Source of the DNA: an uncultured Helicobacteraceae bacterium | Lineage (GTDB): Bacteria; Campylobacterota; Campylobacteria; Campylobacterales; Helicobacteraceae | Reading direction: 5' to 3' | NCBI GenBank assembly: GCA_947176375.1 | Contig: CAMWQM010000006.1 | Location: 13,531-77,530 of the forward strand | Length of the DNA stretch: 64,000 nt | In this document: positions 24,955 through 52,911 of the stretch, one piece after another | Layout of the letters: each line of letters opens with the position of its first letter | How positions within the stretch are numbered: position 1 is the stretch's first letter | The notes under the pieces: generated by a model | Told to the model about the DNA's origin: nothing | The model's input: only the letters and a program-made list of their open reading frames with translations | The model's database searches: none | Position numbers and translations under genes: made by a program

Positions 24955-25452
24955 TCATTGTTCATAATTTTCTATTGATATGGTTACACCATTTGTAAGA
25001 TTTTTAAAATATATTCGCTTTGTCCCCCGCTCATAGTAGATATTTTCATTTCCATAGCTAAATTTTTGTATTATGGTCTCATCTTCTCCTAGCTCCTTAC
25101 CTCTGCCCTCGAATATATCTTTTTTTAGTAAAATCTCCTCAAGAAGTGTATCATAGCTCACATTACCAAAAAATGAGCGACTTGCGGGCCATTTTGGAGC
25201 GCAGTCATCATTGAAGCAAATTTGTTTTTCTTCTATTGTGAATCTTCCTATACTTTTACCTAGTTTAAAGACTTCTAGGCTTATATTTGGCGTGGTTCTT
25301 AAGATTCCAAAATCATAGAATTTAATATTTTGACTTTTGATTAAAATAAGTTTTAATTCGCCCTTATCAGTTTCTTCTAGATTTTCCACTTTTGGTGTAG
25401 CACAGGCACTAAAGATAATGCATATGGCTATGGCGAATTGTGCTACTTTCAT
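24955..25452 (-). CDS. Putative lipoprotein, co-transcribed downstream of the FlgP-like gene (FlgQ position)
   Basis: 165 aa with a signal peptide and lipobox IIFSAC. It starts 2 nt after the upstream gene. The functional guess rests on position only. Confidence 0.55.
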   Translation of the reverse strand: MKVAQFAIAICIIFSACATPKVENLEETDKGELKLILIKSQNIKFYDFGILRTTPNISLEVFKLGKSIGRFTIEEKQICFNDDCAPKWPASRSFFGNVSYDTLLEEILLKKDIFEGRGKELGEDETIIQKFSYGNENIYYERGTKRIYFKNLTNGVTISIENYEQ

Positions 25453-25454
25453 AT

Positions 25455-26234
25455 TTATTTATTTGATAGAATATTATGCCAGATTTTGCCATCTAGTTTT
25501 AATTCCATAGTGATTTGGCAAAGTCCATCTTTATAAACAGTCTCAATTACTTCAGCATTTTTAATCAACGCTTCAACCTTTGTTTTTACCACAGAATTAA
25601 TCAGCATCATATCACGCACTGTGTCTTGTGCATTCAATCTAATACCATACATCTTTTCACCTATTTGTCTGTAAGCATCAATTATTGCTGCCCTTTTTGC
25701 CAAAGCTAGTGCTTGAGATGGAGAAATTGTAGATTCTGGTGCCACTCCCATGCCAACAGCACTTAACTCTATGATATTATTAGGCGTTAGTATTGGTGAG
25801 TTTTGAATCATATTTGTTTCTTGTTTCTCTGTGCTTGGAGCTGGGGTGGTTGGCACAGCCTGCTCATAAGGCACTATCTCACTAGGTGCTACATAATTTG
25901 GCATATAATCGCCCCTCTGGTCTCTAATATAAATATCTACACTAGGATTATTGCTTACCTGCTCTTGTGGCATTTGCTGTGGAAACTGGCTATTTTGTAG
26001 ATTCCCTGTGATATTTGCTTCACCAACATTCAATCTGTCAATGTTCATAACCCTGTTGTTATTGTCATTTAGTAGATTCGGATTATATGGCTGATTTAGT
26101 GGCGGATACACTGGTGCTTGTATAGGAGAGTATTCCGCTGATGGTGGTATCATATTTTGGTCTTCATCTGCAAACATAGAGCAGCCTGAAAAAATCACTA
26201 TAAAACTTGAAATTATCCATATTTTGAATTTCAT
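25455..26234 (-). CDS. LPP20-domain lipoprotein, FlgP-like (flagellar basal-disk lipoprotein candidate)
   Basis: 259 aa with lipobox IFSGCS and a Pro/Gln/Asn-rich linker. The C-terminal LPP20-like domain reads ALALAKRAAIIDAYRQIGEKMYGIRLNAQDTV...VIETVYKDGLCQITMELK. A sigma54-type promoter lies upstream. Confidence 0.6.
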   Translation of the reverse strand: MKFKIWIISSFIVIFSGCSMFADEDQNMIPPSAEYSPIQAPVYPPLNQPYNPNLLNDNNNRVMNIDRLNVGEANITGNLQNSQFPQQMPQEQVSNNPSVDIYIRDQRGDYMPNYVAPSEIVPYEQAVPTTPAPSTEKQETNMIQNSPILTPNNIIELSAVGMGVAPESTISPSQALALAKRAAIIDAYRQIGEKMYGIRLNAQDTVRDMMLINSVVKTKVEALIKNAEVIETVYKDGLCQITMELKLDGKIWHNILSNK

Positions 26235-26269
26235 ATCCTTAACCTTTTTATCTAAAATTTTGGAATCCT

Positions 26270-26287
26270 AAGCAAATAGTATTCCAT
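26270..26287 (-). promoter_or_regulatory. Candidate RpoN (sigma54) -24/-12 promoter for the FlgP-like operon
   Basis: The minus strand reads ATGGAATACTATTTGCTT. GG and GC have the exact sigma54 spacing, matching the Campylobacter/Helicobacter consensus TTGGAAC-N4/5-TTGCTT. The site lies about 35 nt upstream of ATG 26234, which has an AAGGA RBS. Confidence 0.55.
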
Positions 26288-26574
26288 AAATTTGTAAATT
26301 AATAAATAGATTTGATTTAATGTATTTTAGTAAAAATAATGGTGCAATTTAGATGGAAATGTTTGTTAATTTTTGAGATAAATTTAGTTTTTACAGCTTT
26401 GTTTTATTAAAATTAAAAGATATTTTAAAGTAAATTGCAAATAGCCGTAATTATACATAAAAACATACAGATTTGGAATAAGTAGATTTGTTAAACTTGA
26501 CTAAAAATTAAGGTAAAATTTTAAGATTATTTTCTTAAGAATTATATTAGGTAAAATATATAAGGGAGAGTGTA

Positions 26575-29500
26575 ATGAAAACTTTAGGTTTTGATATAGG
26601 GATTACTAGCATTGGTTGGGCTTTTATAGAAGATGATGAACTTAAAGATTGTGGAGTTAGAATATTTACTAAAGCTGAAAATCCAAAAACAGGAGAATCT
26701 CTATCTTTGCCTAGGAAAGAAGCTAGAGGAGTAAGAAGAAGGTTAGCAAGGAGAAAACAAAGGCTAAATGAACTTAAAAAATTAATTTGTAAAGAATTTG
26801 GATTCAATCTCAAAGATTATTATAGCAATGATGGTGAATTACCCAAAGCCTACCAAACTACTAAAGACACTAAAAGCCCTTATGAGTTGCGTTATTTGGC
26901 ATTGCACCAAAGACTAGAATCTAGTGATTTAGCAAGAGTGATTTTACATATCGCAAAACATCGTGGTTATGGAAATAAACACGCTAAAAATTTAAATTAT
27001 TCTCAAAATGATGAAAATACAGAAATTAATCAAACAGAGGGTAAAAAATCAAAAAGTAAAAAAGATAAGTCTAATGAAGTTAAAAATGCTCTTAAGGTTA
27101 ATAGAAGGCTAGTAAAGAAGTATCAAAGTGTAGGAGAATATCTGTATAAAGAATTTTTTCAAATCCAAAGAAGTGATAATGAAATAATAGAGTCCTTAAA
27201 AGCAAGAGGAGATACAAGTAAAACAAAACAATTTAAAAATGTTCGCAATAAAGCAGGGAAATATGAACATTGTATGGCACAAGAATGGCTAAAAGAAGAA
27301 CTTGAACTAATTTTTACAAAACAACAAGAATTTGGAGTAAATTTAAGTGATACATTTTGTAAAGAGGTTTTAAAAACCGCCTTTTATCAACGTGATTTAA
27401 AAGATTTTAGCTCTAAAGTTGGAGAATGTATATTTTGTAAAGACGAGAAATGTTCCCCTAAAAATTCTCTTAGTGCGATGGAATTTGTAGCCCTTACTAA
27501 AATTATCAATACACTAAAAAATCTAGAAGAAAAGAATAAGAATCTTGGTATTGGTGAAGTATATGGGGAAAATAAAATAGAAGAGATTCTAAAAATCGTG
27601 CTTGATAAGGGTGTGATGAGTTATAAGAAATTGCGTGAGATTCTAGATTTGAATGAGAAAATAAGGTTTAAAGATCATAAACTTGATTATAGCAAGGATA
27701 TAAAAGAAGCTGAAAAGCGAAACTTCATTGAATTTAAAAACCTTAAAGATTTCAAAAATGCAATGGGTGAATATGATTTTAATAATCTATCCTACCGCAA
27801 AGAGCTAGATTCTATAGCAACAGATATTACCCTAATTAAGAGTAAGTATAATCTAGCAGAAAAACTAAAAGATTATCCAACTCTTACACAAAGACAAATA
27901 GAAGCTTTAAGTGAGTTAGATTTTACACAACATATTAATTTAAGCTTAAAAGCTCTAGAAAAGATTCTACCTTTTATGCGAAAAGGAGTTCGATATGATG
28001 AGGCAGTAAAAATGGCAGGGTTGCAAGAGCATAGAAAGCATAATCAAAAGAGTGAATTTTTGCCTCCACTTAAAGATTATGAGCCATATCTAGCAAATCC
28101 AGTAGTTGCAAGAGCACTAAGTGAATATCGCAAGGTGCTAAATGCTCTACTTAAAAAGTATGGGAAAATGCATAAGATTCACTTAGAATTTACACGTGAA
28201 GTGGGTAGAAACTATAAAGAGCGAAAAGAGATTGAAAAAGAGCAGACAAAGAATTTTGAATTAAATCAAAGGGCACAAAAACAATGTGAAATTCTTGGAT
28301 TGCCTCTTAGTAGTTCAAATATACTTAAAGCAAAGCTTTGGATAGAGCAAGGGGAATATTGTGCTTATAGTGGAGAAAAAATTACTAGAGAGCATTTACT
28401 AGATTCTAATGTCTTGCAAATTGACCATATTTACCCCTACTCTCGCAGTTATGATGATAGCTACAATAATAAGGTGCTTTGTTTTACAAAAGAAAATCAA
28501 AATAAGATTAATAAGACACCTTTTGAAGCATTTGGGGATGATAAAGAAAAATGGGATAAAATTCTAGCACTAGCTAGTAAGCTTCCCAAAGCAAAGAAAC
28601 GCAGAATTACAAATACTCAATTTAGCAATAAAGAAGTAGGCTTTATTGCAAGAAACCTAAATGATACAGGATATATTGCAAGATTAGCAAGTGATTGGAC
28701 AGATAATTCATTAAAATTTTTGCCCTTAAGTGAGAATGAGGTAACGATTGCAGGAGAAAAGGGTAGTAAAAAACATATAGAAGTAGTAAGTGGGAGTTTA
28801 ACTTCAATGCTTAGACATTATTGGGGACTTGGAAGTAAAGATAGGGATAATCACCTTCATCACGCAGTAGATGCAATAATTATTGCTTATACTAATGCAA
28901 AAACTATCAAGGCATTTTCAGATTTTAAAAAGACACAAGAGCAAAATAAAGCAAAGTTTTATGCTAAACAAATAGCAGAATCTGAATATAAAAAGCAAAA
29001 AGTGTTTTTTGGGCCCTGCCTTGATTTTAGAAATAAAATTTTAGCAAAAGTAGATTCTCTTTTTGTCTCAAAACCACCACGTAAAAGAGCAAGGGGTGCA
29101 TTGCACAAGGAAACTTTTCATTCCTTTAATGATGAAAAACTACTTAAAGAATATGGTGGCACACAAGGCATACAAAAAGCACTTGAACTAGGTAAAATCC
29201 GGCAAATTGGAACAAAGATTGTGAGTAATGGAGCAATGGTGCGAGTGGATATTTTTAGAGATAAAAAAGGCAAATTCTATGGTGTGCCTATTTATACTAT
29301 GGATTTTGCATTAGGAGTTTTGCCAAATAAGGCAGTAAGAGGTGGTAAAAAAGATGGCGTGATTAAAGATTGGCTTGAGATGGATTCTCAATATGAATTT
29401 TGTTTTAGCCTATTTAAAGATGATTTAATATTAGTTCAAAAAAAGGAAATGGAGAAACCTGAGTTATGTTATTTTGTAAGTTTTGACACTTCAACTGCAA

Positions 29501-29865
29501 GTATTCAGGTTGAAAAACATAATAATAAATTTGAGGGCTTGAGTGAAAATGAAAAATTACTCTACACCAATGCTACATTAAAAGAAGTGATAGGTAAAAG
29601 CATAGGCATACAAAATCTAAAAATCTTTGAAAAATATCAAGTTTCTTCACTAGGTGAGATAAAGAAAAGTATTGTATTTGATAAAGAGTATAATTGCTAT
29701 GTTTTATTTGATAAAAATGAAAATATATTAAAAGATTCTAATGATATTCTCAAAAAGCCTGCAAGAGAGCCTATCTCATTAAAATCAAGCAAAAAGAAAA
29801 CTCTACAAATTTCCACTCAAATACACTCAAACGCACAGCTAAAAGAACTTGATAGAAAAGACTAG
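26575..29865 (+). CDS. cas9: Type II-C CRISPR-associated endonuclease Cas9
   Basis: - 1096 aa.
- RuvC-I is FDIGITSIGWA.
- The arginine-rich bridge helix is RRRLARRKQRL.
- HNH is LQIDHIYPYSRSYDDSYNNKVLCFTKENQNKINKTPFEAFG.
- RuvC-III is HLHHAVDAIIIAY.
- Long stretches are near-identical to C. jejuni Cas9 as I remember it (YQSVGEYLYKE, GKIRQIG..VRVDIF, VPIYTMDFALGVLPNKAV, SIGIQNLKIFEKY). Confidence 0.95.
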   Translation: MKTLGFDIGITSIGWAFIEDDELKDCGVRIFTKAENPKTGESLSLPRKEARGVRRRLARRKQRLNELKKLICKEFGFNLKDYYSNDGELPKAYQTTKDTKSPYELRYLALHQRLESSDLARVILHIAKHRGYGNKHAKNLNYSQNDENTEINQTEGKKSKSKKDKSNEVKNALKVNRRLVKKYQSVGEYLYKEFFQIQRSDNEIIESLKARGDTSKTKQFKNVRNKAGKYEHCMAQEWLKEELELIFTKQQEFGVNLSDTFCKEVLKTAFYQRDLKDFSSKVGECIFCKDEKCSPKNSLSAMEFVALTKIINTLKNLEEKNKNLGIGEVYGENKIEEILKIVLDKGVMSYKKLREILDLNEKIRFKDHKLDYSKDIKEAEKRNFIEFKNLKDFKNAMGEYDFNNLSYRKELDSIATDITLIKSKYNLAEKLKDYPTLTQRQIEALSELDFTQHINLSLKALEKILPFMRKGVRYDEAVKMAGLQEHRKHNQKSEFLPPLKDYEPYLANPVVARALSEYRKVLNALLKKYGKMHKIHLEFTREVGRNYKERKEIEKEQTKNFELNQRAQKQCEILGLPLSSSNILKAKLWIEQGEYCAYSGEKITREHLLDSNVLQIDHIYPYSRSYDDSYNNKVLCFTKENQNKINKTPFEAFGDDKEKWDKILALASKLPKAKKRRITNTQFSNKEVGFIARNLNDTGYIARLASDWTDNSLKFLPLSENEVTIAGEKGSKKHIEVVSGSLTSMLRHYWGLGSKDRDNHLHHAVDAIIIAYTNAKTIKAFSDFKKTQEQNKAKFYAKQIAESEYKKQKVFFGPCLDFRNKILAKVDSLFVSKPPRKRARGALHKETFHSFNDEKLLKEYGGTQGIQKALELGKIRQIGTKIVSNGAMVRVDIFRDKKGKFYGVPIYTMDFALGVLPNKAVRGGKKDGVIKDWLEMDSQYEFCFSLFKDDLILVQKKEMEKPELCYFVSFDTSTASIQVEKHNNKFEGLSENEKLLYTNATLKEVIGKSIGIQNLKIFEKYQVSSLGEIKKSIVFDKEYNCYVLFDKNENILKDSNDILKKPAREPISLKSSKKKTLQISTQIHSNAQLKELDRKD

Positions 29866-29874
29866 GAAAGTAAA

Positions 29875-31230
29875 ATGTTTGATTCTCACTTTAGAACACT
29901 CTTTCTTAGCACACCAGCAAAGCTTAACTTTAAAGATAAAAGATTAATTATTTCTCTAAAAAATGAGCTAGATAATGGAGGAGAAACCACTAGTTATCCT
30001 TTAAATGGAAGCCTAAATAAAGATATAAAATATAAAGCCAAGAGCCCTCATCAAATATTGGAATCTAAAGCTACAATCTCGCATAAAATTAAATTTAATC
30101 CCTCTCTCAAAGCCCTAAATAATGTTCCACATAAATACACTAAAAATACAAATCAAGAAGCAAAAAATACTTATTGTGATACTTATAAAGATGAGATAGC
30201 AATCCCCTTAAGTGATATTTTATGTCTTATTATCGAATCTAGGCAAGTTAGCTTAAGCTCTTATTTGCTAAATGAATTAGCAAAGGAGAAAGTTTTGGTT
30301 TTTGTTTGTGATGAATTTCATTTGCCAAGTGGAATTTTCACTCCATTTTTAGGGCATTATCGCTCTTTAAGTATTTTGCAAAATCAAATCAATTTAAGCA
30401 AGCAAAAGAAAGCTATTCTTTGGCAAAAAATTATCAAGCAAAAAATCTTAAATCAAGCTAATTTGCTAGAATTTATTAAAATCAAAAAAGCTAGTGAATT
30501 GCACAGCCTTGCAAAAAGTGTGCATTTAGGGGATTCTAGTAATAATGAAGCAAAGGCAGCAGCGATTTATTTCCCTGCTTTGTTTCAATCTATTGCAAAT
30601 ATAAAAGGTTTTTCTCGCAAGATTAGTGGCTCTAAAATTTGGCAGGGTGATAGAACTAGCCCTAAAAAGCAGACTGATTTTGAGAGCCAGACTCCTAATA
30701 TCCACACTGATAGTCCTGATAACATAAATCACCCTAAGAATTTCAATTTTGATGATATTAAAAGCCTCCAAAATATAAACCTACAAGATGAGCAAATAGT
30801 GGTTATCAATGCCGCACTAAATTATGGCTATGCGATTGTGCGTGGAATGGTGGTTAGGGCGATTTGCGCAAGTGGACTAAATCCAGCGTTAGGTATCTTT
30901 CATAGTAATCAATTCAATCCCTTTAATCTTGCTGATGATTTGATGGAGCCTTATAGAATCTTTGTAGATTCCCTTGTGGCACAAATGCTAGAAAATAAAG
31001 AATTGCAAGAGAGTTTTAGCATATCAAATCGTGCTAAATTAGCAGAAATTTTAAGTGCAAGTGTGTTATTAAGTGAGGAACAAAAAATCTATCCTTTGCA
31101 TAGAGCGATAATCAAAGGTGTGCAGAGCCTATCTCGCTCTATGAGTGCAGATGTAGAGCTTATTTTGCCTGTATTTGAAGGAGAAAAATCAAATGGAAGA
31201 GAAATTTATGAGAGTGCTAGTGATGTTTGA
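29875..31230 (+). CDS. cas1: CRISPR-associated integrase Cas1, unusually long (two in-frame insertions)
   Basis: 451 aa. The conserved core is present: SNNEAKAAAIYF, INAALNYGYAIVRG, GIFHSNQFNPFNLADDLMEPYR. Extra segments are at about aa 31-106 and aa 250-305. Confidence 0.88.
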   Translation: MFDSHFRTLFLSTPAKLNFKDKRLIISLKNELDNGGETTSYPLNGSLNKDIKYKAKSPHQILESKATISHKIKFNPSLKALNNVPHKYTKNTNQEAKNTYCDTYKDEIAIPLSDILCLIIESRQVSLSSYLLNELAKEKVLVFVCDEFHLPSGIFTPFLGHYRSLSILQNQINLSKQKKAILWQKIIKQKILNQANLLEFIKIKKASELHSLAKSVHLGDSSNNEAKAAAIYFPALFQSIANIKGFSRKISGSKIWQGDRTSPKKQTDFESQTPNIHTDSPDNINHPKNFNFDDIKSLQNINLQDEQIVVINAALNYGYAIVRGMVVRAICASGLNPALGIFHSNQFNPFNLADDLMEPYRIFVDSLVAQMLENKELQESFSISNRAKLAEILSASVLLSEEQKIYPLHRAIIKGVQSLSRSMSADVELILPVFEGEKSNGREIYESASDV

Positions 31231-31516
31231 TATGCCAACAAACACGAAAGAAGATAGGAAAAACTGTATGAAATTCCGCCAAAGTCTCATCAAAGAGGGT
31301 TTTATGATGCTTCAATATAGCGTATATATGAGAATCTGTAAGGGTGTGGCAAATGCAAACTCACATTTAGATAGGCTAGATTTGATTTTACCACCAAAGG
31401 GGCATATAAGGGCATTGCTTTTAACTGAAAGACAATTTGATAATATGCGATTATTGCTAGGAAAAAGAAGTGAATGTGAAAAGTCAAACAAACCCAGACA
31501 GCTTACTTTGTTTTAG
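31193..31516 (+). CDS. cas2: CRISPR-associated endoribonuclease Cas2
   Basis: 107 aa counted from ATG 31193. MEEKFMRVLVMFDMPT is a typical type II Cas2 N-terminus, and a GGAG lies about 9 nt upstream. The gene overlaps the cas1 3' end. The track starts it at TTG 31175. Confidence 0.88.
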   Translation: MEEKFMRVLVMFDMPTNTKEDRKNCMKFRQSLIKEGFMMLQYSVYMRICKGVANANSHLDRLDLILPPKGHIRALLLTERQFDNMRLLLGKRSECEKSNKPRQLTLF

Positions 31517-31546
31517 GTTTTTGTTTTTTAGATTCTATTGTTAAAT
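31510..31546 (+). repeat. Solitary CRISPR-repeat-like 37-mer overlapping the cas2 stop (not a confirmed array)
   Basis: The sequence is GTTTTAGGTTTTTGTTTTTTAGATTCTATTGTTAAAT. It shares the GTTTTAG 5' end, the length and a TGnTAAAT-type 3' end with the C. jejuni type II-C repeat as I recall it. There is only one copy and no second repeat at spacer distance. Confidence 0.25.
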
Positions 31547-32759
31547 TTTAGGCTTTAACAGGGCTAATAAATCTCTAGCTTTGTAAAATATAGCTTTAAA
31601 ATTCTGGGCTTTTAGGTTTAATTTTATGTAGTAATATTCCATAGAAGTGTTTTGAGAACTTTAGAATCTAGATTAATTATTTTTTGTTTTTCATTTTGTT
31701 CTACAAAATGATGTGGATATATGGGAGGAGTTATAGCAAATAAAATGGATGTGTGTAAAACAAAAGTGTAGTTTATTCTTTATTTGTGGGAAAGGCTATA
31801 CTTGTTGATACTTTTAAAAAAGCTAGGAGTGCATTTTAAAGGATTTTAGTATTTAATTCATAAAAATGATGGCAAATTTTTAAGCAACTTTGGAATCAAA
31901 AAAAAAGAATCTAAATAATACTATAATGGTGAAATTAAAATAGATTTTATCAAGATTTTAAGAAGCTACATAGAATTTAAAATATTTAAAATTTCTTTAA
32001 CTTAAACTCTTAGATATGATTTGTGGAATCTAAATATTAATAATCTAACATACTTAAAGCTTTTCAAAAACTGCATAATACTCAAAATAGAAACTAGTAT
32101 GGCAGATTTTGGATAATTAGAGTTTTTAAAATTAGAATCTAAAGGTATCATTTTTAACCCCAATTCTTCTATAGGGGTTCAAAGAAATTATTTTATAGAG
32201 AATTGAGCAAATATTATATTAAATTTAGATAGTTTTCAATATCTATCGCAGATAAAATTAAAATTTGTGTTGAAAATATTCTAAGAATATGCTTTTATGG
32301 TAGTAGAAAATTAAAATTTTATTAATTTGTTAAATAACTAATCTTATTTATTTTAACGAATTTTTATACTAATCAGTTTAAAAATCTTCTTCATAAAGAT
32401 AGTCATTATATGAATTATTTACAATAAAATCTATATATTATTATATTCTTTAAATATAATTATATACACTCTTTATAAAATAACCTAAGAGATGTATATA
32501 TTTATCTACATAATAGACAGCAAAGACTATAAAAGACTATATTTGTTTGAGCTAGTAATTAAAAATCCAAAAAATATTTAATTATGGATGTTTTGTATAT
32601 AAATTTATGATTAGCAAAATACTAATTTCACCAATATTTAAATATTTTTCTTATTAAAAAAGTTGTGTAACTTTGCCATTTTAGCATTTGGATTAATTTA
32701 TTTTTTTGATTAAACTTTCTTTGTTTTTTAAATTTTAACAATAAAACAAAGGATAAAAA

Positions 32760-33256
32760 ATGAAACAAGATATTATGGCTAATGAAAATAGTGATGATGT
32801 AGTAGCCTATCAAAATTCAGGAATTCCTGCTACCTCTAATGAAAATTTAATGTATATTGAGAATGGAGAAGTTAAAAATAAAAAATTTGTAGATAGAACA
32901 CCAGAAGAACAAAGAGAAACTATTAAGAATAAGTTAGCTTATTATTTAAAAAGAACTATTGAAAATGGAACTTCACCACTATTTCAAAAACACTCTAAAG
33001 AATCTTTCCAAGATGAAAAGAATATAGCATTGTTAAAAGCAACTTAAAAGCTTCTAATCTCCTAGCTAAACATAAAAATGGAGGACATACTCTTAGGCAT
33101 TCATTTGCCTCATTAATATATAAGGAATCTAATAATCTTTTATTACTCCAACAGCTACTTGGACATTCCAGTATTGAGATAACTAGAATCTATACTCATT
33201 TAGATGAAAATGCCATAACTAATGCAACTAAATATTTAGATGTGATATGTGAGTAG
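32760..33256 (+). pseudogene. Decayed tyrosine recombinase (phage-type integrase), C-terminal part only
   Basis: A frame-2 fragment at 33017-33256 has no start codon. It reads ...[45 protein letters not shown]..., giving the HxLRH box, LLGH and the catalytic Y. The overlapping 95-aa ORF 32760-33047 (..NGEVKNKKFVDRT..SPLF..) looks like the preceding integrase segment in another frame. Confidence 0.65.
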
Positions 33257-33658
33257 AGTAATGATTAAAAAATAAAATGAATTAGAGTAATGATTTATTT
33301 TAGGTTAAAATTTTTAGTTCTAGATTCTAAATCATTATTAGACTTTACTTTAATATTTAAAGAAGAATCTAATTTATTATTAGATTCTATATTCTCTAAC
33401 TCATTTTCATAAAGTGAGTGTCAAGTCATTATTCATCGCCCTAATATCAATTAGCACTACTTTTTTGGTTGAATGCAGATAGCGTATAAACCCAGAAACT
33501 GATGAGCCTGCATCATAGTGAATTTTGGCTTATTTTTAGCATTTTTCTTGCTCCCAAAATATCTTGAATAAAATATAAGCTATCTATTTGTTCATTCTGT
33601 GCGATTTTTATTGGTTTATTTTGAGATATAAATTAAATTGTTGCTATAAAATGTATTT

Positions 33659-34315
33659 CTAAAGCGATTGTATGAATTTTACAGCTTTAAGTGAATCTAA
33701 AAAAATATTATTACTAAATTGTTCTAGATCTGCTCTTTTGCCATATCCACAGAGGATTCCAATGCCTTGAATATCAGCATTTTTAGCAGCTTGCAAATCT
33801 AGTATCGTATCGCCGATCATAAAAGATTTGTTTTTATCTATCTTTATATTTTTAGATTCCATTATCATCAAAGCATTTATTATCGGTTCTTTGTGAGGCT
33901 TTGTATGCACCACATCTTCCCTGCCAATCATAACGCTAAAATATTTTTCCACTTCAAAGTGTTGTAATAGTTCTCTTGAGGAGTGACTTGTTTTTGTTGT
34001 TACGATTCCTAGATTTGCAAATTTACTTGCTAGTTTTATGGATTCTGCTGCATTTGGAAGCATAGTCGTTTTAGCCCTATGTATCGTTGTGTAATGTCTT
34101 TTATAGTCATTGCAACACACCTCAATCAAATCACTACTCACGCCAAAAAATCTAAACATATCTTGCAGAGTGTAACCTATAAATTTTGTAATTTTATTTT
34201 TTGGAAGAAGTGGTATTTTGTGTTTCTTAAATACATTTAAAAAGCTCTCATAGATTGCATCTGTGGAATCTATTAAAGTGCCATCCATATCAAACAAAAT
34301 GATTTTATCTTTCAA
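33659..34315 (-). CDS. HAD-superfamily phosphatase (phosphoglycolate phosphatase-like)
   Basis: 218 aa with motif I FDMDGTLIDS, motif II VTTK and motif IV GDTILD. Confidence 0.85.
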   Translation of the reverse strand: MKDKIILFDMDGTLIDSTDAIYESFLNVFKKHKIPLLPKNKITKFIGYTLQDMFRFFGVSSDLIEVCCNDYKRHYTTIHRAKTTMLPNAAESIKLASKFANLGIVTTKTSHSSRELLQHFEVEKYFSVMIGREDVVHTKPHKEPIINALMIMESKNIKIDKNKSFMIGDTILDLQAAKNADIQGIGILCGYGKRADLEQFSNNIFLDSLKAVKFIQSL

Positions 34316-50617: not shown

Positions 50618-52911
50618 ATGCTCTTTAGTTCTTTTATTTTTATCTTTGCATTTTTACCTTTGATGTTTGTTGTATTTCATATTCTAAAATACTTTTCATT
50701 TTATAAAAGTGCTAAAATCTCTCTTGTTTTAGGAAGTCTATTTTTCTATTCTTTTTGGAAACTTTCTTATCTTCCAATTCTGCTTAGCTCAATTATCATA
50801 AATTATTTTCTAGCTTTAATGATTACTAGATATGGGGGGGGGAATCGCATATTTTAGAATCTAATTTAGATTCTAAATCAAATACACTTTCTAAAAGTTT
50901 AGTTTCCACTTCTATACATTTTATTTCAAACTCTAAATTAATGCCATTTAAACTTACATCATCTCTAACTCCAAAGGCTTTTCTAATTCTAGGCATTATA
51001 TTTAATCTTGCTTTATTAGGTTTCTTTAAATATACAGATTTCTTTTTATCAAATGTTAATACTATCTTTAATATTATAAATCTAGATTTTAATATTACAT
51101 TGCCTCATATTATGCTTCCTCTTGCTATTTCATTTTTTACATTTCAACAGATTGCTTTTCTAGTAGATTGCTATAAACAAAGAAAAGATAGCACTAAAAG
51201 TTTAGAAACTAAAACAGAATCCACTTTGAATATAAAAAATACTAATTTAAATGAAGTTTTAGAATGTGAAGATTCTATTATTAAACACAAGAAAGAATCT
51301 AATTTAATTTTAGATTCTAAAGATTCCCAATCTCTAAATATAAATACTACAATAGAATCTAAAACTTTTAATTATAATGCAAGCATAAATCCTAATATTC
51401 CTAATAATCAAGCTAAAGTCATAAAATATTCCGCTCCTCTAGACTTTCTTGATTATTGTTTATTTGTTTGTTTCTTTCCACAACTTATTGCTGGTCCAAT
51501 AGTGCATCATAAAGAGATGATGCCACAATTTAATAATTTGCAAAATAAAAGAAAAGATAAAAAATTGAATTTAGATTCCAAAGTAAATGCGGAAATTAAA
51601 AAGGAAAATGAAAGTTTAGAAGCTAAATTAAATAAATCAAATGTGGATTCTAAATTAGATTCCACTCTAAACATAGAATCTAACAGCATCAATTTAATAA
51701 ATCACAACAAACAATATTTAGATTCTAAAGTTGAATCTAATTCTATCCCAAATCAAATAAATCAAAATAAAACATCCTTTTTAGATTACAAACTTATTGC
51801 TAAAGGATTGTTTATCTTTAGTATAGGATTATTTAAAAAGGTATTCATAGCAGATTCATTTGCTAAATGGGCTAATAAAGGATTTGAGGCAGTAGAGAAC
51901 GGAATTGTGCTAAATGTTGTAGAATCGTGGGCTACATCATTATCTTATACTTATCAACTCTATTTTGATTTTAGCGGATATTGTGATATGGCAATAGGAT
52001 TAGGACTTCTATTTGGAATCGTGCTGCCTATTAATTTTTATTCTCCTTATAAAGCATTAAATATTACTATATTCTGGAGGAAATGGCATATAACTTTAGG
52101 AAGATTCCTAAAAGACTATATCTATATCCCACTAGGAGGCAATAAAAATAGCATTAATAAAATAAAAAATAATATTCTAACTTTAAGAAGCCTCTTTCTT
52201 GTAGCATTCATTAGTGGAATCTGGCACGGAGCAGGATGGGGCTTTATTATCTGGGGGACAATGCATGGAATTGCTATGGTAATTCATAGAGCTTATAGGT
52301 TTATTATAGATTATTTTTTACAAAAAGAGGAGAATAGAAAGAAAGAAGATAATAAATATTTAAAAACTATAATGGAATGTAAATCAAATTTAGATTCCAA
52401 AGTAGAATTAGAATCTACGAATAATATAAATATTCAAAGTTTAGATTCTAAATCTAATTTAGCTTTAGATTCCAATCACAATAAATTTAATAGCTTCCAT
52501 AGATTTACTAGATTCTCATTAAAAAGCTTTTTAGATTCTACATTCTATAAAGTGATTTGCTTTATTATTACTTTTAATTTTATAAATATTGCGTGGATAT
52601 TCTTTAGAAGTGAGAATGTAAGTGGAGCAATCAATCTTTTAAGAGGAATGTTTGGGGTAGAGTGGGTCGATTTGCCGCTAAAGTGGTGGAGAATGCCAGA
52701 AACTTTAAAGACAATTGAAGGTAGAAATGAAACTATAATTTATATCATCCTAGCTTTTGTAGTATGTTTATGGATTAGGAATAGTTGGGAGATGGCTAGA
52801 GCTTTTAGTGGTAGAGTATGGGAGGTTGTGCTATTTGCTGTTTTTATTCAAATTTCATTTAGTTGTATGCAAGATGCAACAATACAAGAATTTATATATT
52901 TTAACTTTTAG
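50618..52911 (+). CDS. MBOAT-family O-acyltransferase (AlgI/DltB/PatA-like), frameshifted at a poly-G tract in this sequence and carrying LDS-rich inserts
   Basis: - ORF 50618-50857 encodes the MBOAT N-terminus (MLFSSFIFIFAFLPL...).
- ORF 50941-52911, whose frame is open from 50843, encodes the rest: ISFFTFQQIAFLVDCY, FFPQLIAGPI, WRKWHITLGRFLKDYIYIPLGG and the conserved His in SGIWHGAGW.
- The two frames differ by one nucleotide at G9 (50834-50842). Confidence 0.85.
50834..50842 (+). repeat. Homopolymeric G9 tract (candidate phase-variation switch)
   Basis: The sequence is tatGGGGGGGGGaatc. With G9 the frame stops at TAG 50855. Adding one G (G10), or removing two (G7), would fuse the N-terminal ORF to the downstream MBOAT frame. 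Confidence 0.8.

What the first reader, a model, noticed from the sequence alone, without database searches (positions are those of the whole stretch)
29965..30790. Cas1 carries two large in-frame insertions (451 aa versus about 300 aa typical for type II Cas1)
The conserved Cas1 elements are all present:
- the N-terminal beta-strand region MFDSHFRTLFLSTPAKLNFKDKRLIISLKNE ... IAIPLSDILCLIIES
- EAKAAAIYF
- INAALNYGYAIVRG
- GIFHSNQFNPFNLADDLMEPYR

About 75 aa (roughly nt 29965-30192) are inserted inside the N-terminal domain. About 55 aa (roughly nt 30622-30790; SGSKIWQGDRTSPKKQTDFESQTPNIHTDSPDNINHPKNFNFDDIKSLQNINLQDEQ) are inserted just before the NYGY helix.

Both inserts are low-complexity and Asn/Lys/Ser-rich, like the inserts seen in other genes of this window. 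They may inactivate spacer acquisition, which would be consistent with the missing array. Alternatively they may be tolerated surface loops.
Basis: partly seen in the sequence, partly recalled or inferred. Interest (0 to 1): 0.6.

Follow-up and report, generated by a model that had tools for sequence, protein, structure and literature searches.

The report
Cas1 integrase with two expanded loops
A gut Helicobacter's CRISPR spacer-integrating enzyme Cas1 carries two long floppy loop insertions at spots that also expand in related species, and it most likely still works.

Summary
Window 29875-31230 (+) is one open 451-aa type II Cas1, with about 74 extra residues at aa 31-105 and about 50-57 at aa 250-306. 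Both protein ends align with the ~320-aa Helicobacter Cas1s, so no other start or frame gives a normal length.

The inactivation reading is not supported.
- All residues shown to be essential in S. pyogenes Cas1 are conserved.
- The AlphaFold core matches solved type II Cas1 (Z 34, rmsd 1.7 Å over 287 of 289 residues). Both inserts are predicted disordered (pLDDT below 50).
- The "missing array" premise is wrong for the genome. A CRISPR array (14 perfect 36-nt repeats) and a tracrRNA anti-repeat lie on other contigs. One spacer nearly matches a phage-like contig of the same assembly.
- Other Helicobacter Cas1s are expanded at the same two sites with unrelated sequence (363-562 aa). Several of those genomes carry arrays of 15-32 repeats.
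- A second allele (98% identical) keeps both inserts. It has 7 of its 10 changes in insert 2 and 2 in the 319-aa core.

The inserts are hydrophilic but not low-complexity, and they are not copies of a repeated element.

Verdict: tolerated, fast-evolving surface loops in a probably functional integrase. This is a modest new variant of a known kind. Activity was not tested.

The parts
26575..29865 (+). cas9 (1096 aa), type II-C, related to Campylobacter jejuni Cas9
   Evidence: TIGR01865 scores 670 bits. Pfam finds the CjCas9 PI-CTD, WED, HNH and RuvC domains. It is the only cas9 in the genome.
29875..31230 (+). cas1 (451 aa), type II Cas1 with two loop expansions
   Evidence: ORF. TIGR03639 254.8 bits and PF01867 100.3 bits. 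AF2 core pLDDT is about 90. Best structural match is 8q2n_B: Z 34.1, rmsd 1.7 Å, 287 of 289 residues aligned.
29965..30189 (+). Insert 1 (site A), aa ~31-105, in the hairpin between strands 23-28 and 107-111 of the N-terminal beta domain
   Evidence: Alignments (83 residues against the modal 9). pLDDT is below 50 for aa 33-103, with no secondary structure. Only the P0001 cluster shares the sequence.
30622..30792 (+). Insert 2 (site B), aa ~250-306, in the loop between helix 224-241 (carries catalytic E225) and helix 303-332 (carries N312 and Y317)
   Evidence: Alignments (63 residues against the modal 13). pLDDT is below 50 for aa 251-300. Only P0001 shares it, at 88% identity. It holds 7 of the 10 differences from allele P0001.
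31208..31516 (+). cas2 (102 aa from the ATG at 31208), overlapping the end of cas1 by 23 nt
   Evidence: TIGR01573 89 bits and PF09827 59.4 bits; the match starts at residue 12 of the 113-aa TTG-started ORF. It is 74-81% identical to Cas2 of relatives.
31517..32759 (.). 1.24-kb AT-rich stretch downstream of cas2 with one 61-aa ORF, no array and no detectable repeat or anti-repeat relic
   Evidence: No CRISPR-like repeats. The best local match to the genome's repeat is reached by 35 of 200 shuffles. Rfam finds nothing relevant.

Best explanation
The two inserts are lineage-specific, intrinsically disordered, hydrophilic expansions of two surface loops of a type II-C Cas1. The rest of the protein is intact and probably still works as an integrase.

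- **Site A** is the beta3-beta4 hairpin of the N-terminal domain.
- **Site B** is the loop between the helix that carries the catalytic Glu and the next helix of the catalytic domain.

Both loops are permissive spots that have grown independently, with unrelated sequence, in several enterohepatic Helicobacter lineages. They evolve fast in sequence and length while the core stays conserved. Cas1, with the translationally coupled Cas2, presumably still feeds the genome's type II-C array, which lies at a separate locus next to the tracrRNA.

**Shown:** the anatomy, conservation of the catalytic residues, the predicted fold and disorder, recurrence at the same sites, the presence of an array and anti-repeat, and the allele contrast.

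**Inferred:** integrase activity, surface exposure away from the Cas2 and dimer contacts, and the origin of the inserts.
For: 1. **Active site intact.** S. pyogenes Cas1 residues found essential by deep mutational scanning are E149, H205, D217, E220 and R223, plus D144, N147, G202, N210, N213 and D227, and the Cas2-contacting R5 (PMC12216489, passages read). By the alignment they map to window E225, H343, D355, E358, R361, D220, N223, G340, N348, N351 and D365. R5 maps to R7 by the N-terminal offset of the structural alignment. All are invariant in the 60-row alignment A4, except N223 and R7, which are at least 90% conserved.
2. **Fold kept.** AF2 gives a core pLDDT of about 90 and pLDDT below 50 for aa 33-103 and 251-300, with no secondary structure. 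VIA-align gives Z 34.1, rmsd 1.7 Å and 287 of 289 residues to S. thermophilus Cas1 in its integrase complex. Values for E. faecalis 5xvn are similar.
3. **Recurrence.** 27 of the 120 best Cas1 clusters are at least 400 aa long. 5 of 58 Helicobacteraceae genomes with a Cas1 match have open frames above 380 aa. Site A ranges from 7 to 218 residues and site B from 6 to 63. On a core-only tree the window's lineage and the H. macacae-like clade are separate, and each has nearest kin with an unexpanded site B.
4. **Expanded Cas1 coexists with large arrays.**
   - G077: 413 aa, 28 cognate repeats plus 23 of a second type.
   - G079: 410 aa, 15 plus 7 repeats.
   - G131: 431 aa, 32 repeats adjacent.
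   - G154: 363 aa, 16 repeats adjacent.
5. **Own genome.** There is one cas operon. There are 14 perfect repeats, 11 distinct spacers and a perfect 24-nt anti-repeat. Spacer 2 matches the phage-like contig C33 at 28 of 30 positions.
6. **Allele contrast.** Allele P0001 keeps both inserts. Its 10 differences fall as 7 in insert 2 (57 aa), 1 in insert 1 (75 aa) and 2 in the 319-aa core. Fisher p = 3.7e-5 for insert 2 against the core. The core has therefore stayed constrained since the inserts arose.
7. **Frame kept open.** Shuffled insert DNA lacks an in-frame stop in only 9 of 5000 and 65 of 5000 trials.
Against: - No activity, expression or binding data exist. No RNA run was listed, and the complex predictor was not available.
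- AF2 cannot show that long disordered loops do not get in the way.
- Site A sits in the N-terminal domain, which binds Cas2 (and Csn2 in type II-A systems) (PMC6182153, passages read).
- Site B lies between two helices of the catalytic domain, 25 residues after the catalytic Glu.
- The array is not next to the operon, and I could not show that any spacer was acquired after the inserts arose.
- The allele contrast rests on 10 differences at the protein level only. The DNA of the other allele could not be obtained, so no dN/dS was computed. Insert 1 is as conserved as the core (1 of 75 against 2 of 319; p = 0.47).
- The closest Cas1s in the family scan (G166-G168, 320 aa) showed no array with the pattern used. 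Array presence therefore does not track Cas1 length either way.
Confidence: 0.7

Rival explanations
1. The inserts cripple Cas1 by blocking dimer or Cas2 assembly, or DNA access. Adaptation is dead and the array is a frozen relic used only for interference.
For: The inserts are large, adding 40% to the protein, and sit in the partner-binding N-terminal domain and in the catalytic domain. The array is detached from the operon. No evidence of recent acquisition could be obtained.
Against: The catalytic and second-shell residues and R7 are conserved. The core has 2 changes in 319 aa against 7 in 57 aa for insert 2 between two alleles that both carry the inserts. The frame is open through AT-rich inserts. 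The cas1-cas2 overlap is kept. Relatives with inserts at the same sites hold 15-32-repeat arrays.
Confidence: 0.1
2. The loops have gained a function. In systems that lack Csn2, the hairpin face of the Cas1 N-terminal domain and site B act as a fast-evolving interaction or decoy surface. They might recruit Cas9 or host factors, or evade phage inhibitors of adaptation.
For: Site A abuts the position of S. pyogenes K25. K25 is one of three surface residues (H12, K14, K25) that recruit Cas1 to Csn2 (PMC12216489; alignment). Type II-C systems have no Csn2. Site A is hypervariable in length across lineages, from 7 to 218 residues. Two proteins in one 90% cluster differ by an 82-aa block there. Insert 2 changes about 20 times faster than the core, which would fit diversifying selection.
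Against: The inserts share no sequence or motif across lineages and have no predicted structure. Most Helicobacter Cas1s with arrays lack them. Cas9 and Cas2 of these lineages also carry their own hydrophilic inserts, which points to a general tolerance of indels. A fast rate fits relaxed constraint equally well.
Confidence: 0.15
3. The inserts are in-frame copies of a small repeated or mobile DNA element, like the Rickettsia palindromic elements, or of the motif-packed filler seen in another gene of this window.
For: I confirmed that GAATCT/AGATTC is over-represented in the genome (6516 counts, 1.55 times the Markov expectation). In another Cas1 lineage (P0074, P0090) site A is built from repeated modules.
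Against: Neither insert has another copy in the 1.8-Mb genome; the best other hits are 39-49 nt at 76-82% identity. There are no flanking duplications, inverted repeats or tandem repeats. GAATCT/AGATTC occurs once in insert 1 and not at all in insert 2. The window background is 4.2 per kb and the acyltransferase region has 12.3 per kb.
Confidence: 0.03

Closest known systems
Type II-C Cas1 of enterohepatic Helicobacter and Campylobacter (NCBIfam TIGR03639 cas1_NMENI; for example the H. cinaedi cas9-cas1-cas2 locus, PMC5640232)
   Same: Same family (254.8 bits), same cas9-cas1-cas2 operon order, and 61-65% identity over aligned columns to the ~320-aa Helicobacter Cas1s. The 36-nt repeat is of the GTTTTAG...TAAAAT type.
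   Different: It is 451 aa rather than 308-324. It has about 74 extra residues in the N-terminal hairpin and about 50 before the NYGY helix. The array and tracrRNA lie at a distant locus instead of beside cas2.
Solved type II-A Cas1 structures (S. thermophilus 8q2n, E. faecalis 5xvn/5xvo/5xvp, S. pyogenes 4zkj)
   Same: The whole fold superposes: Z 30-34, rmsd 1.7-3.4 Å, 284-287 residues aligned, 31-33% identity. Catalytic residues are identical.
   Different: Those proteins are 288-291 aa with short loops at both sites, and they work with Csn2. This locus has no csn2. Site A lies next to the residue equivalent to the Csn2-recruiting K25 (an inference).
Expanded Cas1 of the H. macacae-like clade (P0094, 413 aa; genomes G077 and G079) and of P0074, P0067 and P0090 (451-562 aa)
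   Same: These expand at the same site A. The macacae subclade also expands at site B. The core is conserved, and G077 and G079 have large arrays.
   Different: The insert sequences are unrelated (best blastp E 0.032, uncorrected, against a tiny database). These proteins form a separate clade on the core tree. They have further expansions at two C-terminal sites. In P0074 and P0090 site A is modular and repetitive, which the window's inserts are not.
Rickettsia palindromic elements and other in-frame repeat insertions (recalled from the literature; not read here)
   Same: Extra in-frame hydrophilic segments sit in surface loops of an otherwise conserved protein.
   Different: The window's inserts are single-copy, not palindromic, and have no repeat family in the genome.

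Membership tests
Type II Cas1 (TIGR03639 cas1_NMENI / Pfam PF01867) | Profile score above the curated cutoff | tested here: met
   254.8 bits against a cutoff of 120; PF01867 100.3 bits against 22.3. The match is split in two by insert 2.
Type II Cas1 (TIGR03639 cas1_NMENI / Pfam PF01867) | Catalytic Glu/His/Asp/Glu/Arg set and second-shell active-site residues | tested here: met
   E225, H343, D355, E358 and R361, plus D220, N223, G340, N348, N351 and D365, align to the S. pyogenes residues named in PMC12216489. All are invariant or at least 90% conserved in A4.
Type II Cas1 (TIGR03639 cas1_NMENI / Pfam PF01867) | Two-domain Cas1 fold (N-terminal beta domain plus helical catalytic domain) | tested here: met
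   AF2 model with pTM 0.73. Z 34.1, rmsd 1.7 Å, 287 of 289 residues to 8q2n_B.
Type II Cas1 (TIGR03639 cas1_NMENI / Pfam PF01867) | Operon context with cas9 and cas2 | tested here: met
   cas9 ends 9 nt before cas1, and cas2 overlaps the end of cas1.
Type II Cas1 (TIGR03639 cas1_NMENI / Pfam PF01867) | A cognate CRISPR array and tracrRNA to serve | tested here: met
   Not adjacent, but present in the genome: 14 perfect repeats and a perfect 24-nt anti-repeat on C2 and C11, with a single cas operon. That the array is cognate to this operon is inferred from its being the only one.
Type II Cas1 (TIGR03639 cas1_NMENI / Pfam PF01867) | Spacer integration activity together with Cas2 | not testable with these tools
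In-frame repeated or mobile element (RPE-like) | Multiple related copies in the genome | tested here: not met
   blastn of both inserts against the whole 1.8-Mb assembly found only themselves, plus 39-49-nt matches at 76-82% identity.
In-frame repeated or mobile element (RPE-like) | Palindromic or terminal-repeat structure, or target duplication | tested here: not met
   No flanking direct or inverted repeats at the insert borders. Only a weak 21-nt tandem repeat.
Intein or added folded domain | A recognisable domain inside the insert | tested here: not met
   Pfam and NCBIfam report only Cas1 families at E <= 0.01. AF2 gives no secondary structure in either insert. Searches with each insert alone find only P0001.

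The most novel reading that the evidence does not exclude
In the Csn2-less type II-C systems of enterohepatic Helicobacter, one face of the Cas1 N-terminal domain has become an expandable, hypervariable module. This is the beta3-beta4 hairpin, which in type II-A systems lies beside the residues that dock Csn2. It ranges from 7 to 218 residues. Together with site B it may be under diversifying selection as an interaction or decoy surface, for example to recruit Cas9 or host factors for prespacer capture, or to escape phage proteins that block adaptation. On this reading the window's Cas1 is one instance of a so far undescribed arms-race feature of the adaptation machinery.
Probability: 0.12. 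Interest if true: 0.65.

Novelty: new variant of a known kind. Interest (0 to 1): 0.3.

Why it matters
Cas1 is among the most conserved and compact CRISPR proteins. Natural variants that carry 50-220-residue disordered loops at two defined sites, while apparently keeping arrays, mark positions where the integrase tolerates large insertions. That is useful for engineering tagged or fused Cas1 for molecular recording. It also raises the question of whether the free Csn2-docking face in type II-C systems has been put to another use.

For annotation, the lesson is practical. An over-long Cas1 and an operon without an adjacent array should not be called defective until the whole genome has been searched.

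If the loops are only tolerated filler, which is the most likely case, the finding is ordinary.

Tried and rejected
- **Mobile or repeat origin.** blastn of the inserts against the genome, repeat and tandem scans and the count of the over-common word GAATCT were all negative.
- **Extra domain or intein.** Family scans found only Cas1. Searches with each insert alone over 5.8 billion proteins found only the P0001 cluster. These searches are word-indexed and cover proteins of 248-790 aa only.
- **Homology of the window's inserts to those of other lineages.** Best blastp E was 0.032, without composition correction and against 7 short segments. Rejected.
- **Relic of an array or anti-repeat beside the operon.** The best local matches are reached by 35 of 200 and 37 of 200 shuffles. 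Rfam found nothing relevant in 25000-34000.
- **Expression.** No RNA holder was listed.
- **Nucleotide divergence of the second allele.** The one listed run (X1, an animal gut metagenome) gave only short contigs identical to the window and no variant rows. No dN/dS was possible.
- **The exact 36-nt repeat elsewhere.** 0 matches in metagenome contigs and 0 in genome contigs. Array turnover between strains could not be examined.
- **Cas1-Cas2 complex prediction.** Nothing was folded.
- **The E. faecalis Cas1-Cas2 structure paper (10.1038/nature24020).** Not held. The contacts of the two loops in that complex were not read.
- **tracrRNA body.** The fold is no better than shuffles (z -0.43) and no terminator pattern was found. 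The assignment rests on the perfect anti-repeat.
- **Gaps inside the G077 arrays.** Not interpreted.
- **Earlier-findings look-ups by sequence and by words.** Nothing was returned.
- **Literature.** Two full-text searches listed no paper on Cas1 loop insertions in Helicobacter.
Full report
**What is there**

The window carries a compact type II-C operon.
- cas9 at 26575-29865: 1096 aa, with the C. jejuni-type PI, WED, HNH and RuvC domains.
- cas1 at 29875-31230: 451 aa.
- cas2 at 31208-31516: 102 aa, overlapping the end of cas1.

Cas1 scores 254.8 bits on TIGR03639 (cutoff 120). The match is split: the best stretch is aa 101-249 against profile positions 21-166 of 278, and the rest of the match resumes near aa 310. 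Both protein ends align residue for residue with the ~320-aa Cas1s of other Helicobacter. The extra length is therefore internal and in frame, not a mis-called start.

I measured the inserts between conserved anchors.
- Site A (I26 to I110) has 83 residues; most rows have 7-9.
- Site B (R248 to N312) has 63 residues; most rows have 6-13.

Shuffled insert DNA stays free of in-frame stops in only 9 of 5000 trials (insert 1) and 65 of 5000 (insert 2). The observation and its coordinates are confirmed.

The description "low-complexity" is not confirmed. The inserts are strongly hydrophilic (GRAVY -1.14 and -1.34, against +0.11 for the core). Their entropy, 3.80 and 3.69 bits, lies in the middle of same-length core windows. 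No meaningful tandem repeat is present.

**Is the enzyme intact?**

Deep mutational scanning of S. pyogenes Cas1 names these residues (PMC12216489; I read passages found by term search).
- Catalytic: E149, H205, D217, E220 and R223.
- Strongly preferred active-site residues: D144, N147, G202, N210, N213 and D227.
- Essential for the Cas2 loop contact: R5.

The HMMER alignment to chain 4zkj places them on window E225, H343, D355, E358, R361, D220, N223, G340, N348, N351 and D365. The chain index runs 2 ahead of native numbering. I inferred this offset by comparison with the S. thermophilus alignment. It puts every catalytic residue on an identical letter. R5 falls on R7 by the N-terminal offset of the structural alignment.

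All of these are invariant in my 60-row alignment, except N223 and R7, which are at least 90% conserved.

AlphaFold2 with that alignment gives a confident core (blocks of pLDDT 86-98) and two stretches below 50 with no secondary structure, aa 33-103 and 251-300.
- Insert 1 lies between strand 23-28 and strand 107-111.
- Insert 2 lies between helix 224-241 and helix 303-332.

With the low-confidence stretches trimmed, the model superposes on Cas1 of the S. thermophilus integrase complex at Z 34.1, rmsd 1.7 Å and 287 of 289 residues. It matches E. faecalis and S. pyogenes Cas1 about as well.

**The "missing array"**

No array lies within 26000-33700. The 1.24 kb after cas2 holds no significant relic of a repeat or anti-repeat.

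The genome is 37 contigs and 1.8 Mb. It has 14 perfect copies of a 36-nt repeat of the type II-C kind.
- Twelve are on contig C2. Eleven of these form an array that runs to the contig end.
- Two are at the start of C11. C11 overlaps the end of C2 through a shared spacer.
- There are 11 distinct 30-nt spacers.

About 95 nt after the last repeat, C11 215-238 is a perfect 24-nt complement of repeat positions 2-25. This is the expected tracrRNA anti-repeat. The rest of that RNA is inferred, because its fold is no better than shuffles.

tblastn finds cas9, cas1 and cas2 only in this window. The system is therefore complete but split between two loci.

Some spacers point to real acquisition from mobile DNA in this lineage.
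- Spacer 2 matches a phage-like 9.2-kb contig (C33) at 28 of 30 positions. One of the two mismatches is at the last base.
- Two spacers are variants of one protospacer, and two others overlap by 13 nt.

None of this dates the acquisitions relative to the inserts.

**Relatives**

The best 120 Cas1 clusters are nearly all Helicobacter, as far as they carry names.
- Most are 308-324 aa.
- 27 of 120 are at least 400 aa. These include an H. macacae-like group of 407-416 aa, and P0074, P0067 and P0090 at 451, 534 and 562 aa.

In a scan of 173 Helicobacteraceae genomes, 58 have a Cas1 match. Five of those (the window's own genome, G077, G079, G131 and G154) have open frames above 380 aa.

Alignments show four recurrent expansion sites.
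- **Site A:** the window, its nearest kin P0002 and P0005 (about +20), the macacae group (about +30), P0074/P0067/P0090 (+95 to +210) and G154.
- **Site B:** the window and the macacae subclade only.
- **Two C-terminal sites:** the macacae/P0074 clade, G131 (about +125) and G154.

I built a tree on the 321 well-filled core columns (quick IQ-TREE, SH-aLRT only, 17 of 57 forks open).
- The window and P0001 group with P0002, P0013 and P0032, which have site B of 10-15 residues (support 90).
- The macacae/P0074 clade (support 100) lies elsewhere, and its P0074 branch has site B of 15.

Site B therefore expanded at least twice, and site A several times. I chose the rows of that alignment and included every long form, so its proportions are not frequencies.

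The insert sequences are not detectably related between lineages.

Length also changes quickly. P0074 (451 aa) and P0129 (533 aa) are 96% identical but differ by one 82-residue block in site A.

Genomes with expanded Cas1 keep arrays.

| Genome | Cas1 length | Repeats found |
|---|---|---|
| G077 | 413 aa | 28 cognate plus 23 of a second type |
| G079 | 410 aa | 15 cognate plus 7 of a second type |
| G131 | 431 aa | 32, adjacent to the operon |
| G154 | 363 aa | 16, adjacent to the operon |

Against a simple link in either direction, G166-G168 have 320-aa Cas1s, the closest in that scan. They showed only 1, 1 and 2 pattern hits, no more than the controls.

**Within the species**

The 90% cluster of this Cas1 has three members.
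- One is identical to the window.
- P0001 differs at 10 of 451 positions.
- A 377-aa fragment is cut at its C-terminus.

All three carry both inserts. The 10 differences of P0001 fall as follows.
- 7 in insert 2, four of them within five residues.
- 1 in insert 1.
- V309A at the border of insert 2.
- I430V in the core.

Insert 2 against the 319-aa remainder gives Fisher p = 3.7e-5. Insert 1 against the remainder gives p = 0.47.

Both alleles have the inserts, so this divergence came after them. The core has thus stayed far more constrained than insert 2, which argues against a decaying gene. It is protein-level evidence from few changes. I could not obtain the other allele's DNA.

**Origin of the inserts**

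Neither insert has another copy in the genome. Neither has flanking duplications or inverted repeats.

- I confirmed that GAATCT/AGATTC is over-represented: 6516 counts, 1.55 times the Markov expectation.
- The word occurs once in insert 1 and never in insert 2.
- Its density is 12.3 per kb in the acyltransferase region and 4.2 per kb in the window overall.

The Cas1 inserts are therefore a different kind of filler.

The cas9 genes of these lineages each carry their own 15-35-residue hydrophilic inserts. G131's Cas2 has a 45-residue tail. This suggests a general tolerance of hydrophilic indels in these genomes. How the inserts arose remains unknown.

**Where the loops sit**

Both Cas2 and Csn2 bind the Cas1 N-terminal domain (PMC6182153, passages read).

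In S. pyogenes, the elements that contact Cas2 are the beta1 strand (R5), helix alpha8 and strands beta9-10. Csn2 is recruited by the surface residues H12, K14 and K25 (PMC12216489).

By alignment, site A opens directly beside the position of K25. The alignment is uncertain within a few residues there. Type II-C systems lack Csn2, so that face would be free. This would explain why it tolerates up to 218 extra residues, and it leaves room for the bolder reading that it has been reused. This step is inference. I could not read the E. faecalis complex paper or run a complex prediction.

**Verdict**

This is a genuine type II-C Cas1 with two unusually large, disordered, fast-evolving loop expansions at sites that expand recurrently in the genus. 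It is most likely still active (confidence 0.7).
- Inactivation is possible but disfavoured (0.1).
- A gained function of the loops is not excluded (0.15).
- A mobile-element origin is largely refuted (0.03).

Two full-text searches listed no paper describing such Cas1 variants. The H. cinaedi study I checked describes a standard locus with the array beside the operon (PMC5640232, passages read).

Noticed in passing
L001 6262-7964 (G000 contig C2 169261-170963): A solitary perfect CRISPR repeat is followed by 1649 bp that hold two ORFs. One is 253 aa with no family hit. The other is a 271-aa Fic/DOC protein (PF02661 1.1e-11; PADLOC PDC-S04 5.7e-21 and SoFic 7e-15). Its stop overlaps the first repeat of the main array. 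A candidate defence cassette therefore sits exactly where a spacer would be.
   Followed up: partly
L002 1-8000 (G000 contig C11): The array end and the tracrRNA anti-repeat lie beside a defence island: a type I restriction specificity subunit, a 729-aa PDC-S06/PrrC-like ATPase (3.1e-231), small toxin-antitoxin-like ORFs and a restriction subunit. This is far from the cas operon.
   Followed up: partly
G000 contig C33 3853-3881 (outside the window): Array spacer 2 matches this 9.2-kb phage-like contig at 28 of 30 positions, with a mismatch at the last base. It may be an escape variant of a targeted element that is present in the same assembly.
   Followed up: partly
G000 contig C2 171114-171473: Spacers 3 and 8 are variants of one protospacer (24 of 27 aligned positions identical). 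Spacers 4 and 5 overlap by 13 nt, so there were repeated acquisitions from the same targets.
   Followed up: no
Proteins P0074, P0129, P0090 and P0067 (not in the window): In this Cas1 clade site A is built from repeated modules (for example QYDK...NIDCHAKSSDFARND). Two 96%-identical proteins differ by one 82-residue block bordered by ICHT and ISHT, which looks like unequal recombination between modules.
   Followed up: partly
window 26989-27051, and the C-terminal part of cas9 (aa 1033-1059 and 1079-1095): Cas9 of the window has its own hydrophilic lineage-specific segments, for example NLNYSQNDENTEINQTEGKKS. Cas9 of G077, G079, G166, G167 and G108 have different ones of 15-35 residues. G131's Cas2 has a 45-residue C-terminal tail.
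   Followed up: partly
whole genome G000; window 50843-52545: The hexamer GAATCT/AGATTC is the most over-represented word in the genome (6516 counts, 1.55 times the Markov expectation). It reaches 12.3 per kb in the acyltransferase region noted earlier, against 4.2 per kb for the window.
   Followed up: partly
window 31517-32759: This 1.24-kb AT-rich stretch after cas2 has only one 61-aa ORF and no recognisable RNA family or repeat relic. It occupies the place where an array and tracrRNA sit in relatives.
   Followed up: partly
L037 and L039 (G166, G167): The genomes with the closest Cas1 in the family scan (320 aa) have cas9-cas1-cas2 with no array within about 8 kb. They gave no more pattern hits than the controls genome-wide. 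Array-less or array-distant operons may be common in this group.
   Followed up: no
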